Below are positions 16,247 through 21,244 of a stretch of DNA of 64,000 nt, piece after piece. Position numbers and translations under genes: made by a program. This DNA is from Escherichia coli. GTDB taxonomy: Bacteria > Pseudomonadota > Gammaproteobacteria > Enterobacterales > Enterobacteriaceae. The stretch lies in assembly GCF_013122565.1 (NCBI RefSeq), contig NZ_CP053258.1. The stretch is one strand, 5' to 3'. The notes under the pieces were generated by a model that was given only the letters and a program-made list of their open reading frames with translations, was not told the origin of the DNA and ran no database searches. Positions within the stretch are counted from its first letter, which is position 1. The number at the start of each line of letters is the position of its first letter.

Positions 16247-18490
16247 TTAGAAACGGAAGGTTGCGGTTGCAACGACCTGACGTTCTGCGCCCCAGAAACA
16301 GCCATAAGTGTTAAAGCAGCTGGCGACGTATTCACGATCGAACAGGTTGTTGACATGCAGCGCCACGTTGGAGCCCGCCATGCCGACTCGCGCCAGATCA
16401 TAACGCACTAACGCATCCACGACCGTATAACTTCCCACTTTAAAGGAGTTAGCCGGATCACCATAGCTGGAGCCAGTATAACGACCACCGGTGCCCAGCG
16501 TCAGACCTGAAAGTGGACCGTCAAAGAAGGTATAGTCAGCCCACAGCGAAGCCATGTGTTTTGGCACCTGTGCAGGCGTATTGCCTTTATAGGTAGTATC
16601 GGTGGTGTATTCCGCATCGGTGTAAGTATAAGAACCGACTACGTTAACACTCGCCGACAGCGCCGCTTTCGCTTCGATTTCTACGCCACGAGCGCGGATC
16701 TCACCACCTTCAACCGAGAAGAAGGAACCCTCAGGGTCCGCCATCAGGTTGTTGGTTTTAGTGAGATTATACACGGCACCAGTAACTACAATCGGACGAT
16801 CTTCCGGTACATATTTCACGCCGACTTCATACTGCTTACCTTTAGAGGGTGCAAAAATATTACCATCCTTCCCAACTTGCGAAGAAGGTTCAAACGATTC
16901 GCTATAGCTGAAGTAAGGTGTTACACCATTATCAAACAGGTAGTTAACACCACCACGCCAGGTAAACTGTTTGTCATCACGTTTATCGGTCGTTCCCGCT
17001 ACGCGGTTAAGAGATTCTTGATCTGCCCAGTCGTAACGCCCGCCCAGGGTGACCAGCACTTTATCCCACTGCGCCTGATCCTGAACATAAACGCCCGTTT
17101 GTTTCTGCTTATTCAGAATGCGGTAAGGACCGGAGTTTGCCGGATCTTTGGCATTGAAGTCGAAATCGGTATTCACCGGATTGTACAGATCGAGCAGCGG
17201 CACAGAGTCGTCGTAACCAAACCAGGCGTTGATGTCATTACGCATACGCATAAAGTCGACACCGGTCAGCAGGGTGTGGTCGATATCGCCAGTGGCAAAC
17301 TTGCTCTGCAACTGGGTATCAACGGAGAAGTTTTGCAGCTTCTCATCATCAACGACGTATTTACGTGCCAGATAATGGCCTTTATCCGCTGGCGCTAATG
17401 CCGCACACTGTTTGCTGTAAGCATTCGCCGGATCGGAGCAGACGCCGTAACCATAAACGCTGTTTTGCGAAGTTTTGTTTTCAGCAAAGCGCAGGTTCTG
17501 ACGCACAGTAAAGGTGTCGTTAAATTCGTGATCGAAGCTGTAGCCCACCATCTTCTCATTACGAGAATAGGTGTTGTTCTTCGCCCCTTCGTTAAAGTCT
17601 GTCGGCAGACGCTTACCGTTCGGCAGCGGCTCAACAGTTCCCTCTTTCGGCAACCAGCCGTAATAACCGGTTTCCGGCTCGTTCTGGAAGTAAGAAAGGA
17701 AGGTGAAATTGGTTTTATCGTCCGGACGCCAGGTAAACGCTGGCGCAATGGCATAACGCTGCTCTTCCGCGCCCTTTTGCTGGGCATTGGCAGAGCGCGC
17801 AAGACCGGTCAGACGATAAGAGTAAACGCCGTCATCATCCAGCGCATCGCTGAAGTCAAAACCGGTCTGGAAGAGGCTGTCAGTCCCGGCCTTAAACTGA
17901 ACTTCTTTCAACGGTTCAGTGGTCGGGCGCTTGCTGACCATATTCAACAGACCGCCAGGACTGCTTTTACCGTAAAGCACGGAAACCGGGCCACGCATAA
18001 TTTCAGCGCGTTCCAGCATATACGGGTCAATGACCGCATCGTTATAGAAGTTGCCCTGCAACTTCAGGCCATTCAGATAGTTATTCTGACTTTGGCCTTC
18101 TGCCGCAAAACCGCGAATGATCAGGTGGTCATAGGTGTTGGATGCGCCACGCGTACCAACAGAGACACCCGGCGTGTAGCTGAGCGCCTCTTTTACTGAC
18201 TTCGGCTGATGTAGCGCCATCTCTTCGGCGGTCACAACAGAAATAGACTGTGGCACTTTTTGAATCGGCGTATCGGTTTTAGTGCCGGTAGCAGACTGTC
18301 GCGCCGCAATAGTTGCAGCCGGCCCCCATGCGCTTTCTTGCGGCGCAGGTGCAGCGGTAACGGTGATAGTGTCTTCTTTCGGTTCAACCGCTGCCTGTGC
18401 ATAAACAGACATGCCGCTAACCGCTGTGGCTACTACAACTGCGATTTTACGCAGTGAGTGTTTTGGCTGAGCAGTTTTGGAACGCGCCAT
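16247..18490 (-). CDS. fhuA: Ferrichrome outer membrane transporter FhuA (TonB-dependent; phage T1/T5/phi80 receptor)
   Basis: 747-aa ORF with signal peptide, TonB box region and C-terminal FRF; recognised as FhuA. Confidence 0.96.
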   Translation of the reverse strand: MARSKTAQPKHSLRKIAVVVATAVSGMSVYAQAAVEPKEDTITVTAAPAPQESAWGPAATIAARQSATGTKTDTPIQKVPQSISVVTAEEMALHQPKSVKEALSYTPGVSVGTRGASNTYDHLIIRGFAAEGQSQNNYLNGLKLQGNFYNDAVIDPYMLERAEIMRGPVSVLYGKSSPGGLLNMVSKRPTTEPLKEVQFKAGTDSLFQTGFDFSDALDDDGVYSYRLTGLARSANAQQKGAEEQRYAIAPAFTWRPDDKTNFTFLSYFQNEPETGYYGWLPKEGTVEPLPNGKRLPTDFNEGAKNNTYSRNEKMVGYSFDHEFNDTFTVRQNLRFAENKTSQNSVYGYGVCSDPANAYSKQCAALAPADKGHYLARKYVVDDEKLQNFSVDTQLQSKFATGDIDHTLLTGVDFMRMRNDINAWFGYDDSVPLLDLYNPVNTDFDFNAKDPANSGPYRILNKQKQTGVYVQDQAQWDKVLVTLGGRYDWADQESLNRVAGTTDKRDDKQFTWRGGVNYLFDNGVTPYFSYSESFEPSSQVGKDGNIFAPSKGKQYEVGVKYVPEDRPIVVTGAVYNLTKTNNLMADPEGSFFSVEGGEIRARGVEIEAKAALSASVNVVGSYTYTDAEYTTDTTYKGNTPAQVPKHMASLWADYTFFDGPLSGLTLGTGGRYTGSSYGDPANSFKVGSYTVVDALVRYDLARVGMAGSNVALHVNNLFDREYVASCFNTYGCFWGAERQVVATATFRF

Positions 18491-18512
18491 TGGTATATCT
18501 CTGATGTAAAGT

Positions 18513-18545
18513 GAATGATAACGTAAACGAGAATGATTATTATAA
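18513..18545 (-). promoter_or_regulatory. Candidate Fur box in the fhuA promoter region
   Basis: Minus-strand reading aataatcattctcgtttacgttatcattc resembles the Fur consensus GATAATGATAATCATTATC and lies about 25-55 nt upstream of the fhuA start. Confidence 0.55.
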
Positions 18546-18679
18546 AGATAAGATAATATTCGAAACGCTGGCGGGTTCGCAAGCGGTACGCAATCTGAGC
18601 GTTCCTGAAGGGTTAATAAACAACCAGATGAAAAGAAAGGGTTAATACTTTAGGTGGGATGTTATTTTACCGGATGGCA

Positions 18680-18702
18680 ACTCGCCATCCGGTATTTCAC
18701 GC
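18680..18702 (-). terminator. Hairpin immediately downstream of mrcB (putative terminator)
   Basis: ccggatggc-aactc-gccatccgg perfect 9-bp stem just 3' of the mrcB stop; flanking sequence is A/T-rich but lacks a clean U-run. Confidence 0.4.
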
Positions 18703-18709
18703 TTAGATG

Positions 18710-21244
18710 TTAATTACTACCAAACATATCCTTAATCCAACCGGCTACACCGTCGCTATCTTTCTGCTCTTGCTGGGCAGGTTGCTGTTGCGGCTGTTGC
18801 TGCGGCTGTGAAGACTGATCAAACGGATTGCCTGACGGCTGCTGCTGCATCTCACTCTGCTGGCACAGCGATTGCGGATCGCTGGTCCAGACCGGCAAGA
18901 CACGCATGCCACCGCTGCAAACAAAGTTGCCGTCGTAGTCCACGCCCATATCTGCAATATCTTCTGGCGGAACAAGATTCAGCGGTGTTGGCGTCTGGTT
19001 AGCCAGATAACGCTGATAAATCGACATTGCCCCGCTGGCACCATACAGTTTGGTCGGCTGGTTGTTATCACGGCCTACCCAGGTGATGGTCACCGTGCTG
19101 CCGTCAATGCCCGCAAACCAGGTATCTACGTTATTGTTGGTAGTCCCTGTTTTCCCTGCCAGATGCAGGTTCGGGTATTTCGCCCCAAGCTGACGACCCG
19201 TACCGCGTTGTACCACCTGCTGCATGGTCCATAGTGTCAGATACGCCGCCTGCGCCGGAACAGCGCGTTCCGCCTGCGGGAAGCTCTGATACAGCACTTT
19301 GCCATCTTCCGCAATTACCGAACGCAGCGCAGAAAGCGGTGCACGGTTACCGCCGCTGGCGATAGTCTGGAATGCCTGCGCCACTTCGATTGGCGTTAAG
19401 TTCAACGCCCCCAGCAGCATCGCCGGAACCGGATGCAGCTGATCTTTCGGTACGCCCAGTTTAATCCAGGTCTCCGTAACCGCAGGCAGCCCCAGCGCCA
19501 TCCCCAGATTTACCGTCGGCACGTTCATCGAACGGGTCAACGCATCCACCAGCATCACTCTGCCGCTTTCGCTATAACGACGGTCATCGTTCTGCGGTGA
19601 CCAGACCTGGCCATTCGGCTGACGTAGCGCGATTGGCGCATCCGCAATCCACGTATTCAGACGATAGATTTTCGGCTGGCTTAAGGCCGTCAGATAAGTC
19701 GCTGGTTTTGCAAGAGAACCAATCGAACGACGCGCCTGCATCGCACGGTTGTAGCCCGCAAACTGCGGCTCAGAACCACCGACCATCGCACGAACTTCAC
19801 CACTAAAGCGGTCGACGACCACAATCGCAGTTTCAAGATCGCTCAGCTTACGCTGTTTCTTCAGTGCCGGAATGCCTTCCACGGCGGCTTTTTCTGCCGC
19901 GTCCTGTGCCACCGAGTCAAAGGTAGTGAAGATCTTCACGCCGGAGAGATCTTTTACCTTATCGCCCAGTTTTGCCTGCAACTCCTGACGCACCAGCTGC
20001 ATAAAGGCTGGCTGAGGAGAGATCACCCCACCGCGCGGCTGAACACCCAGCGGACGTGCACTCAACATGTCATAGAGTTCTTGATCAATAATCTGTTGCT
20101 GTTGCAGCAGACGCAGCACCAGATTACGTCGCTCCAGCGCCAGTTTTGGGTTACGCCACGGGTTGTAGATGGACGCCCCTTTCACCATGCCGACTAACAG
20201 CGCCTGCTGGTCGAGGCTTAGCTCTTCTACCGGGCGACCAAAGTAATACAAGCTCGCCAGCGGGAAGCCGCGGATTTCGTTGTCGCCGCTCTGACCGAGA
20301 TACACCTCGTTCATATACAGCTCAAGAATACGGTCTTTGCTGTAACGCGCGTCCATGATCAGCGCCATGTAAGCTTCGTTCGCTTTACGCCAGTAAGAGC
20401 GCTCGCTGGAGAGGAACAGGTTTTTCACCAGCTGTTGCGTCAGCGTACTCGCCCCCTGCACCGTGCGACCTGCGGTCAGGTTTGCCAGCACCGCACGTCC
20501 GATGGAGTAGAGACTGATTCCATCATGCTCGTAAAAATGACGGTCTTCTGTCGCCAGCAAAGTATCCACCAGCAAATCAGGGAAACCACTGCGCGGCACA
20601 AACAGACGCTGCTCACCGTTTGGCGAGGAGATCATGGTGATCAGGCGCGGATCAAGACGGAAGAAGCCGAACTGACGGTTGTTCTCCATATTGACGATGG
20701 TCGCCAGATGATCGCCATCAAAGGTCAGACGCGCACGCACCTGCCCTTCTTTACTGTCCGGGAAATCAAACGGACGGCGGATCATCTCAATGCTGTTGGC
20801 CTGCACGGTAAATTCGCCAGGACGGGTCATTTTCGACACCTGACGATACTGGGTAGCCTCCAGCAGCTTCACCATCTCGTTCTTGCTGATGGTCATATCT
20901 GGCTCAAGGTTGACCATTCGGCCATAAACTGCCGCAGGCAGTTGCCAGACCTTGCCATCAATACGGCTACGAATTTTTTGATCGAGATAAACACCGTAAA
21001 TGGCGATCAGCACGGCAAAAACGATAGCCAGTTTTAGCAGTAGCCATAGCCAGCCGCGTTTGCCACGAGGCTTACGCCCTTTGCCTTTGCCCTTACCTTT
21101 GCGCGGCATCGGTTCTTCATCCTCATAGTCATCATAATCGTCGTAATCATCGTCATCTTCGTAACGACGACGGCTTACCTTTTGTTTGACCGGACGCGTC
21201 GGTTTCCCTTTGCGTCCAATTGGCTCGCGGTCATTCCCGGCCAT
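18710..21244 (-). CDS. mrcB: Penicillin-binding protein 1B (bifunctional glycosyltransferase/transpeptidase)
   Basis: Track ORF 18710..21259; recognised start [19 protein letters not shown] at 21244; acidic then basic N-terminal tail, transmembrane anchor and transpeptidase motifs. Confidence 0.94.

What the first reader, a model, noticed from the sequence alone, without database searches (positions are those of the whole stretch)
18513..18545. Fur-box-like sequence in the fhuA promoter
aataatcattctcgtttacgttatcattc (minus strand) resembles the Fur consensus, consistent with iron-repressed ferrichrome uptake.
Basis: partly seen in the sequence, partly recalled or inferred. Interest (0 to 1): 0.15.

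Follow-up and report, generated by a model that had tools for sequence, protein, structure and literature searches.

The report
Known Fur operator at fhuA promoter
This is the already documented binding site of the iron-sensing repressor Fur in front of the E. coli ferrichrome receptor gene fhuA; its downstream half is also a published binding site for the hypochlorite-sensing regulator HypT, so the finding is correct but ordinary.

Summary
The quoted string is real. It lies at 18541..18513 on the minus strand, 23-51 bases upstream of the fhuA start codon (18490) in an E. coli fhuACDB locus.

The best Fur matches are CTTTATAATAATCATTCTC (18547..18529, 14/19) and TAATAAT-C-ATTCTCG (18542..18528, 11/14). 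Its centre, 18535, maps exactly to K-12 coordinate 167439. That is the strongest Fur site of the fhuA cluster in Chen et al. 2007, where it was positive in a gel shift.

One 14/19 match is no better than chance, at about one per 64 kb. Three matches in 6-bp phase are rare: 1% of 64-kb simulations and 0.08% of intergenic simulations.

The element is conserved in 86 Enterobacterales species, just downstream of a conserved TTGnnn-18-TAnnnT promoter. Published fhuA-lacZ and RT-qPCR data show derepression without Fur.

Refinement: the downstream half, TTACGTTATCATTCA (18526..18512), is identical to a DNase-footprinted HypT site in Salmonella. It is conserved only within Enterobacteriaceae, whereas the Fur core is conserved more widely.

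The transcription start is not mapped in any source I could read.

Verdict: already known, interpretation supported, low interest.

The parts
16247..18490 (-). fhuA coding sequence (ferrichrome outer-membrane receptor), first gene of fhuACDB
   Evidence: The ORF is listed. NCBIfam NF007465 scores 1473.5 bits against a cutoff of 803. RefSeq annotates fhuA, fhuC, fhuD and fhuB in the identical E. coli ET350 locus.
18498..18504 (-). Conserved TCAGAGA block, probable ribosome-binding site of fhuA
   Evidence: High per-column conservation across 86 species, 8-14 nt upstream of the ATG. Its function is inferred.
18529..18547 (-). Fur box core: CTTTATAATAATCATTCTC (14/19 to GATAATGATWATCATTATC). It contains the 7-1-7 site TAATAAT-C-ATTCTCG at 18542..18528, centred on 18535.
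   Evidence: Scores are. Window 18535 equals K-12 167439, the strongest site (19.5 bits) of the fhuA cluster in Chen et al. 2007, which was positive in a gel shift. The 7-1-7 score is at least 11/14 in 81 of 86 species.
18523..18553 (-). Cluster of three overlapping Fur 19-mers in 6-bp phase (12/19, 14/19 and 13/19), 31 bp in all
   Evidence: The number of sites and the size match the '3 walkers, 31 bp' reported for fhuA in Table 4 of Chen et al. 2007. That paper gives only the centre of the strongest site, so its exact boundaries are unknown.
18512..18526 (-). TTACGTTATCATTCA: the proximal HypT operator as footprinted in Salmonella, and possibly also a weak extension of the Fur array
   Evidence: 15/15 identical to the DNase I footprint sequence in PMC6397515. 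At most 1 mismatch in 68 of 86 species, but 3-6 mismatches in Mixta, Erwinia, Serratia, Ewingella and Hafnia. The hand-counted 7-1-7 Fur score here is only 7-8/14.
18577..18582 (-). -35 hexamer TTGCGA of the conserved sigma-70 promoter
   Evidence: Found by the promoter scan. CTTGC is among the most conserved columns. TTGnnn is present in 79 of 86 species at a fixed 18-bp spacing from the -10.
18553..18558 (-). -10 hexamer TATTAT of the conserved promoter; the predicted start is about 18546, at the upstream edge of the Fur core
   Evidence: The variants among species all keep TAnnnT: TATTAT 65, TAATAT 6, TAAAAT 4, TATCAT 4. The start site is inferred, not mapped.
18539..18544 (-). Perfect TATAAT inside the Fur core; this is the -10 implied by the computationally predicted start (18532) used in the HypT paper
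   Evidence: Read directly from the sequence. The start at 18532 was back-calculated from the two footprint positions, +7..+21 and -111..-97, in PMC6397515. That paper's source for the start is Huerta & Collado-Vides 2003, cited there as ref 32. I know that work as a computational promoter analysis but did not read it. No acceptable -35 lies 16-18 bp upstream.
18629..18643 (-). AACCCTTTCTTTTCA: counterpart of the distal HypT footprint of Salmonella (AACCCTTCCTTTTCA)
   Evidence: 14/15 identical. It lies 102 nt upstream of the proximal site, the same gap as published.

Best explanation
The sequence is the Fur operator of the fhuACDB promoter.

When iron is sufficient, Fe2+-Fur dimers bind a core site centred at 18535 (TAATAAT-C-ATTCTCG). 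They probably also occupy the overlapping 6-bp-phased sites from 18553 to 18523, and perhaps extend weakly towards 18512. This array begins 5-10 nt downstream of the conserved -10 hexamer TATTAT (18558..18553). It covers the predicted start point and also contains an alternative TATAAT. Bound Fur therefore sits inside the RNA polymerase footprint and blocks initiation. When iron is scarce, Fur leaves the DNA and ferrichrome uptake genes are transcribed.

The downstream 15 nt (18526..18512) also serves as the promoter-proximal operator of the hypochlorite sensor HypT. HypT would pair this site with a distal site at 18643..18629.

Shown by published experiment:
- Fur binds this DNA in vitro.
- fhuA is repressed by Fur in vivo.
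- HypT footprints the identical sequence in Salmonella.

Shown here:
- exact coordinates and motif scores;
- rarity of the phased cluster;
- conservation across 86 species;
- the fixed promoter geometry.

Inferred:
- the transcription start;
- the extent of Fur occupancy;
- HypT binding in E. coli.
For: - The string and gene context are verified.
- Motif scores are 14/19, 13/19 and 12/19 in 6-bp phase, 11/14 for 7-1-7 and 11/13 for the ChIP-exo motif.
- The phased cluster is reached in 1% of 64-kb and 0.08% of intergenic simulations.
- Coordinate mapping: K-12 167414..167466 equals window 18560..18508. Chen et al.'s strongest fhuA site, 167439 (19.5 bits, 3 walkers, 31 bp, gel shift positive, -45 from the ATG), therefore falls on window 18535.
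- fhuA promoter-lacZ is Fur-repressed.
- fhuA mRNA and fhuA::lacZ are derepressed in a fur deletion.
- fhuA belongs to a Fur iModulon, and fhuB, fhuC and fhuD appear in a companion gene table of the same paper.
- Conservation: the block 18544..18511 is among the most conserved stretches of the 230-nt upstream region in 86 species of about 29 genera. The Fur core scores at least 11/14 in 81 of 86.
- The promoter TTGnnn-18-TAnnnT is found in 79 of 86 species, with an invariant spacer length.
- Within E. coli, the 53 bp are identical in 4182 of 5415 genomes. In the three variant genomes examined, the changes lie outside the Fur core.
- The HypT footprint sequence is identical, and the distal partner lies at the published distance.
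Against: - The match to the classical 19-bp consensus is only 14/19. That is chance level for a single site in 64 kb, and a 3-mismatch search misses it.
- No DNase I footprint of Fur on fhuA was found in the literature I could read. The direct binding evidence is a gel shift on an oligonucleotide.
- The transcription start is not mapped in any source I could read. The one in use is taken from a 2003 promoter-prediction paper. Whether Fur sits on the -10 or just downstream of it is therefore undecided.
- The downstream half matches Fur motifs poorly, so its strong conservation may owe nothing to Fur.
Confidence: 0.95

Rival explanations
1. Composite operator. Only the upstream part (about 18553..18523) is a Fur site. 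The downstream part of the reader's string (18526..18512) is a separate operator for the LysR-type regulator HypT, which represses fhuA under hypochlorite stress by looping to a distal site. This refines the Fur reading and does not exclude it.
For: - TTACGTTATCATTCA is 15/15 identical to the HypT DNase I footprint in Salmonella. The distal site is 14/15 identical and lies at the same 102-nt gap.
- This half scores only 7-8/14 against the Fur 7-1-7 motif (hand count).
- The two halves have different conservation ranges. The Fur core is kept in Mixta, Erwinia, Serratia, Ewingella and Hafnia, while the HypT 15-mer has 3-6 mismatches there.
Against: - HypT binding was shown only for the Salmonella protein, in a single study, and the effect on transcription was about twofold.
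- Fur often protects extended regions by adding dimers in 6-bp phase. The half contains GTTATCA, 6/7 of a Fur half-site, in phase with the core.
- The presence of hypT in the species that keep the 15-mer was not tested.
Confidence: 0.5
2. Chance resemblance. The stretch is simply an AT-rich promoter (-10-like TATAAT/TATTAT repeats) that looks like the AT-rich Fur consensus, and iron control of fhuA is exerted elsewhere or indirectly.
For: A single 14/19 match is expected about once per 64 kb. Other 14-16/19 matches in the window lie in coding repeats or non-promoter DNA. A perfect TATAAT lies inside the core.
Against: - The phased cluster is rare in simulations.
- The oligonucleotide carrying this site is shifted by 150 nM Fur.
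- Fur dependence of the promoter fusion has been shown.
- The block is conserved across 86 species well beyond what a -10 hexamer needs, while the neighbouring spacer and leader positions vary.
Confidence: 0.02
3. The conserved block acts at the RNA level, as a structured or sRNA-targeted element of the fhuA 5' leader, and not as a protein operator on DNA.
For: If transcription starts near 18546, the whole block is transcribed. It is conserved as strongly as the ribosome-binding site.
Against: - The predicted fold of 18547..18470 is weaker than that of shuffled sequences (-4.6 kcal/mol, z = +0.9).
- No Rfam family matches.
- The block is nearly invariant, so there is no covariation to support pairing.
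- DNA-binding proteins have been shown experimentally to bind it.
Confidence: 0.03

Closest known systems
E. coli K-12 fhuA Fur-binding cluster (Chen et al. 2007, Nucleic Acids Res 35:6762, Table 4: strongest site at 167439, 19.5 bits, 3 walkers, 31 bp, gel shift)
   Same: It is the same locus and the same sequence. The 53 bp at 18508-18560 are 100% identical to K-12 167414..167466, and the strongest site falls on window 18535.
   Different: Nothing substantive differs. The window comes from another E. coli strain (100% identical to ET350 over the 381 bp at 18380-18760), with differences from K-12 only outside the operator.
Classical Fur boxes of siderophore-uptake promoters (19-bp GATAATGATWATCATTATC; 7-1-7 TGATAATnATTATCA; ChIP-exo TGAnAATnATTcTCA)
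   Same: AT-rich inverted-repeat core, overlapping sites in 6-bp phase, position within the RNA polymerase footprint of an iron-uptake operon, and repression when iron is replete.
   Different: It departs from the 19-bp consensus at 5 positions. The best half-site is ATTCTCG, closer to the ChIP-exo variant (ATTcTCA) than to ATTATCA. In the conserved-promoter reading, the array starts downstream of the -10 and does not span the -35 and -10.
Salmonella Typhimurium fhuA promoter HypT operators (Jo et al. 2019, PNAS 116:3740)
   Same: The proximal site TTACGTTATCATTCA is identical. The distal site is 14/15 identical, with the same 102-nt gap. The Fur box lies between them.
   Different: HypT binding has not been tested for E. 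coli DNA or protein. Position numbering in that paper rests on a start site taken from a 2003 promoter-prediction paper.

Membership tests
Fur box (Fe2+-Fur operator of Enterobacteria) | Sequence match to the Fur motif (19-bp consensus, 7-1-7 or hexamer array), usually as overlapping sites spaced by 6 bp | tested here: met
   Scores are 14/19, 13/19 and 12/19 in 6-bp phase, 11/14 for 7-1-7 and 11/13 for the ChIP-exo motif. The phased cluster is reached in 1% of 64-kb and 0.08% of intergenic simulations. A single site alone is at chance level.
Fur box (Fe2+-Fur operator of Enterobacteria) | Position overlapping the promoter or start region of the regulated gene | tested here: met
   The array starts 5 nt after the conserved -10 TATTAT (18558..18553) and contains an alternative TATAAT. 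The start site itself is predicted, not mapped.
Fur box (Fe2+-Fur operator of Enterobacteria) | Direct binding of Fur protein to the DNA | not testable with these tools
   From the literature: an oligonucleotide carrying the fhuA site is shifted by 150 nM Fur (PMC2189734). No Fur DNase footprint of fhuA was found in the papers I could read.
Fur box (Fe2+-Fur operator of Enterobacteria) | Fur- and iron-dependent repression of the downstream gene in vivo | not testable with these tools
   From the literature: fhuA promoter-lacZ is repressed by Fur (PMC4676285). fhuA mRNA and fhuA::lacZ are derepressed in a fur deletion (PMC7315122).
Fur box (Fe2+-Fur operator of Enterobacteria) | Conservation of the site in orthologous promoters | tested here: met
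   The Fur core scores at least 11/14 in 81 of 86 species from about 29 genera. The block 18544..18511 is among the most conserved parts of the upstream region.
HypT (YjiE) operator pair of the fhu promoter | Sequence of the footprinted proximal site, TTACGTTATCATTCA | tested here: met
   15/15 identical at 18526..18512.
HypT (YjiE) operator pair of the fhu promoter | Distal partner site about 100 bp upstream | tested here: met
   AACCCTTTCTTTTCA at 18643..18629 is 14/15 identical, with a 102-nt gap as published.
HypT (YjiE) operator pair of the fhu promoter | Binding of HypT and HOCl-dependent repression in this organism | not testable with these tools
   This has been shown only for Salmonella HypT. 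hypT does not lie in this window.

The most novel reading that the evidence does not exclude
The working fhuA promoter may be the deeply conserved TTGCGA-18-TATTAT (start near 18546), not the computationally predicted TATAAT promoter (start 18532) that the HypT paper adopts from a 2003 prediction. In that case the Fur array occupies about -7 to +24 and the HypT proximal site about +21 to +35. In addition, the downstream half of the operator would be a separate module confined to Enterobacteriaceae that was added to an older Fur core.
Probability: 0.45. Interest if true: 0.15.

Novelty: already known. Interest (0 to 1): 0.07.

Why it matters
It matters little beyond annotation. Fur repression of fhuA is textbook knowledge, and this exact site is in the literature.

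The useful by-products are practical:
- Exact coordinates for the Fur core, the HypT operator and the conserved promoter in this window.
- A demonstration that resemblance to the Fur consensus alone is at chance level here. The window's best consensus matches are codon repeats inside genes.
- A comparative footprint showing that the start site used in the HypT paper, which comes from a 2003 promoter-prediction paper, may be about 14 nt off.

Tried and rejected
- A search for the 19-bp consensus with up to 3 mismatches found only 55729-55747, not the fhuA site. That hit and its neighbours are a GAT/CAT codon run encoding DDDDHDHHHHDDDDYHHHD inside ORF 54787..56640, so I rejected them as promoter elements. 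The mrcB N-terminal acidic run at 21118-21150 is the same kind of artefact.
- The 14/19 match at 38162-38180 lies between convergent ORFs and was not pursued.
- Literature that could not be read:
  - Seo et al. 2014 (Fur ChIP-exo, PMC4167408) and the id I recalled for Coulton et al. 1986 (PMC214387) are not held.
  - No supplements are held for Chen 2007 or Beauchene 2015. The exact gel-shift oligonucleotide and the ChIP peak coordinates therefore could not be checked.
- No experimentally mapped fhuA start site was found.
- PMC3621691 concerns the Vibrio cholerae fhuA promoter, not E. coli.
- The RNA-element idea was tested and rejected: the fold has z = +0.9 and no Rfam family matches.
- Several paper-search calls failed on term syntax.

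Full report
**1. What is at the coordinates**

On the minus strand, the window reads ...ttgcgaacccgccagcgtttcgaatattatcttatctttataataatcattctcgtttacgttatcattcactttacatcagagatataccaATG. The stated interval 18513-18545 adds four bases.

The ATG at 18490 opens a 747-aa ORF (16247..18490). This ORF is FhuA: NCBIfam equivalog NF007465 scores 1473.5 bits against a cutoff of 803. A 381-bp query across the region is 100% identical to E. coli ET350 and is present in 5421 of 5426 complete E. coli genomes. RefSeq annotates hrpB, mrcB, fhuA, fhuC, fhuD, fhuB and hemL around it. The observation and the gene assignment are therefore correct.

**2. Is the resemblance more than chance?**

Motif scores:
- Against GATAATGATWATCATTATC, the best local 19-mer is CTTTATAATAATCATTCTC (18547..18529, 14/19).
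- Neighbours shifted by 6 bp score 13/19 (18541..18523) and 12/19 (18553..18535).
- The 7-1-7 motif TGATAATnATTATCA scores 11/14 at 18542..18528 (TAATAAT-C-ATTCTCG).
- The ChIP-exo motif TGAnAATnATTcTCA, quoted in PMC10164565, scores 11/13 at the same place, tied for best in the window.

A single 14/19 match is not remarkable. Markov-1 simulations give about one such position per 64 kb, and the window has eight positions in five loci. A search limited to 3 mismatches misses the fhuA site.

What is rare is the phased triple. The summed score of 39/57 is reached in 1% of 64-kb simulations, in 0.08% of 219-bp simulations with the composition of this intergenic region, and in none of 5000 shuffles of the proximal 100 bp.

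The only other places in the window with comparable phased scores are GAT/CAT codon repeats inside genes. One is 55696-55748, encoding DDDDHDHHHHDDDDYHHHD. The other is 21118-21150 in the acidic N-terminus of mrcB, which scores slightly lower. Their 3-nt periodicity produces 6-bp phasing automatically.

**3. Identity with a published site**

The 53 bp at 18508-18560 are 100% identical to K-12 167414..167466. The conversion is therefore K-12 coordinate = 185974 minus window position.

Table 4 of Chen et al. 2007 (PMC2189734) lists for fhuA:
- a strongest site of 19.5 bits at coordinate 167439, which is 45 nt before the start codon;
- three walkers, spanning a cluster of 31 bp;
- 'G' for a positive gel shift with 150 nM Fur.

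Coordinate 167439 is window 18535, the central C of TAATAAT-C-ATTCTCG. My three phased 19-mers also span 31 bp. The element is therefore a published, experimentally bound Fur site.

In vivo evidence:
- Beauchene et al. 2015 (PMC4676285) showed Fur-dependent repression of a fhuA promoter-lacZ fusion.
- Gerken et al. 2020 (PMC7315122) showed strong derepression of fhuA mRNA and fhuA::lacZ in a fur deletion.
- Gao et al. 2023 list fhuA in a Fur iModulon, and fhuB, fhuC and fhuD in a companion gene table.

**4. Comparative footprint**

I scanned the species-level genome collection for a back-translated FhuA peptide (YYGWLPKEG). The scan returned 106 loci. For 86 of them, the start codon and 230 nt upstream could be extracted. 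They cover about 29 genera:
- Enterobacteriaceae: Escherichia, Salmonella, Citrobacter, Enterobacter, Kosakonia, Leclercia, Lelliottia, Buttiauxella, Kluyvera and others;
- outside that family: Hafnia, Serratia, Ewingella, Erwinia and Mixta.

Per-column information content shows four conserved blocks separated by variable DNA:
- CTTGC(T/G)A at 18584..18577;
- CGTTTCG-ATATTAT at 18567..18553;
- the operator at 18544..18511;
- TCAGAGA at 18504..18498, before the ATG.

In 79 of 86 species a TTGnnn hexamer lies exactly 18 bp from a TAnnnT hexamer. The -10 variants are TATTAT 65, TAATAT 6, TAAAAT 4 and TATCAT 4, and all keep the positions that sigma-70 needs. This is strong comparative evidence that TTGCGA (18582..18577) -18- TATTAT (18558..18553), also found by the promoter scan, is a working promoter. 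Its predicted start is about 18546, at the upstream edge of the Fur core.

The Fur core scores at least 11/14 in 81 of 86 species.

Within E. coli, the 53 bp are identical in 4182 of 5415 genomes. In three sampled variants, the changes fall in the spacer between the -10 and the core or in the leader, not in the operator.

**5. The downstream half is also a HypT site**

Jo et al. 2019 (PMC6397515) footprinted Salmonella HypT on the fhuA promoter. They found two sites: TTACGTTATCATTCA (+7..+21) and AACCCTTCCTTTTCA (-111..-97), with the Fur box between them.

The second is 14/15 identical at 18643..18629, with the same 102-nt gap.

This half matches the Fur motifs poorly, at 7-8/14 by hand count, although GTTATCA is a good half-site in phase with the core.

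Its conservation range also differs from that of the core. It has at most 1 mismatch in 68 of 86 species, but 3-6 mismatches in Mixta, Erwinia, Serratia, Ewingella, Hafnia and Tenebrionibacter, all of which keep the Fur core.

HypT binding in E. coli is an inference from sequence identity.

**6. Where is the start?**

The two HypT positions imply a start at 18532, with the perfect TATAAT (18544..18539) as the -10. That start is taken from Huerta & Collado-Vides 2003. I know that work as a computational promoter analysis, but I did not read it. No acceptable -35 lies 16-18 bp upstream of that TATAAT.

I found no mapped start in the literature I could read. Seo 2014 and the id I recalled for Coulton 1986 are not held.

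In either reading the Fur array lies inside the RNA polymerase footprint, so the mechanism is the same: blocking of initiation. Chen et al. also report that the strong Fur clusters, except those of three other genes, overlap a strong predicted sigma-70 site.

**7. Rivals**

- Chance resemblance is excluded by the gel shift, the in vivo data, the phased-cluster statistics and the conservation.
- An RNA-level role for the conserved leader finds no support. The fold of 18547..18470 is weaker than shuffles (z = +0.9), and no Rfam family matches.

**8. Verdict**

The element is already known, so interest is low. The open points are small: the exact start site, and whether the downstream half is bound by Fur, by HypT or by both in E. 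coli.

Noticed in passing
window 55696-55748 (+ strand ORF 54787..56640): The window's best match to the Fur consensus (16/19, GGTGATGATAATCATCATC, with phased neighbours) lies inside a 617-aa ORF, in the codon run for DDDDHDHHHHDDDDYHHHD. It is most likely a codon-repeat artefact, although Chen et al. 2007 did find that some intragenic predicted sites bind Fur in vitro.
   Followed up: partly
window 21118-21150 (- strand, mrcB N-terminus): GAT/GAC/TAT codon run ([17 protein letters not shown]) that also gives a high phased Fur-like score (36/57). It has the same cause as the repeat at 55696-55748.
   Followed up: partly
window 18669-18693 (- strand): Perfect 10-bp hairpin ACCGGATGGC-GAGTT-GCCATCCGGT, 17 nt after the mrcB stop codon. 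In the mrcB sense it is followed by AAAATAAC, not a T run, and the scan did not flag it as terminator-like on either strand.
   Followed up: no
window 18606-18645 (- strand): Moderately conserved block (…TTTTCATCTGGTTnTTTnTTAAnCCCTCA) 25-60 nt upstream of the -35 across many genera. Its upstream end includes the counterpart of the distal HypT footprint (18643..18629). The rest is unexplained.
   Followed up: partly
window 18561-18567 (- strand): CGTTTCG inside the 18-bp spacer of the conserved promoter is almost as conserved as the hexamers. Promoter spacers are not normally constrained like this. It could be the -35 of an overlapping promoter or another protein site.
   Followed up: no
L110 (E. 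coli EC05, NZ_CM169495.1) aligned to window 18546-18555: This strain lacks one copy of the tandem TTATC-TTATC between the -10 and the Fur core, which shortens that gap by 5 bp. Its fhuA is annotated as an incomplete pseudogene.
   Followed up: partly
L015, L016, L023, L026, L031, L035, L054, L062, L066, L070, L072, L095, L100 and others (fhuA upstream): In about 15 species an in-frame ATG lies roughly 90 nt upstream of the real start. The fhuA reading frame then runs through its own Fur box (peptide …HNNNSRLRYHSL…), so gene callers could extend the start wrongly.
   Followed up: no
window 38162-38180 and 37428-37442: Two further Fur-like matches: GATAATTGTTATTGTTAAC (14/19) and TGAAAATCTTTTTCA (11/13 to the ChIP-exo motif). 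The first lies between two convergent ORFs and the second inside an ORF, so neither is in a promoter position.
   Followed up: partly
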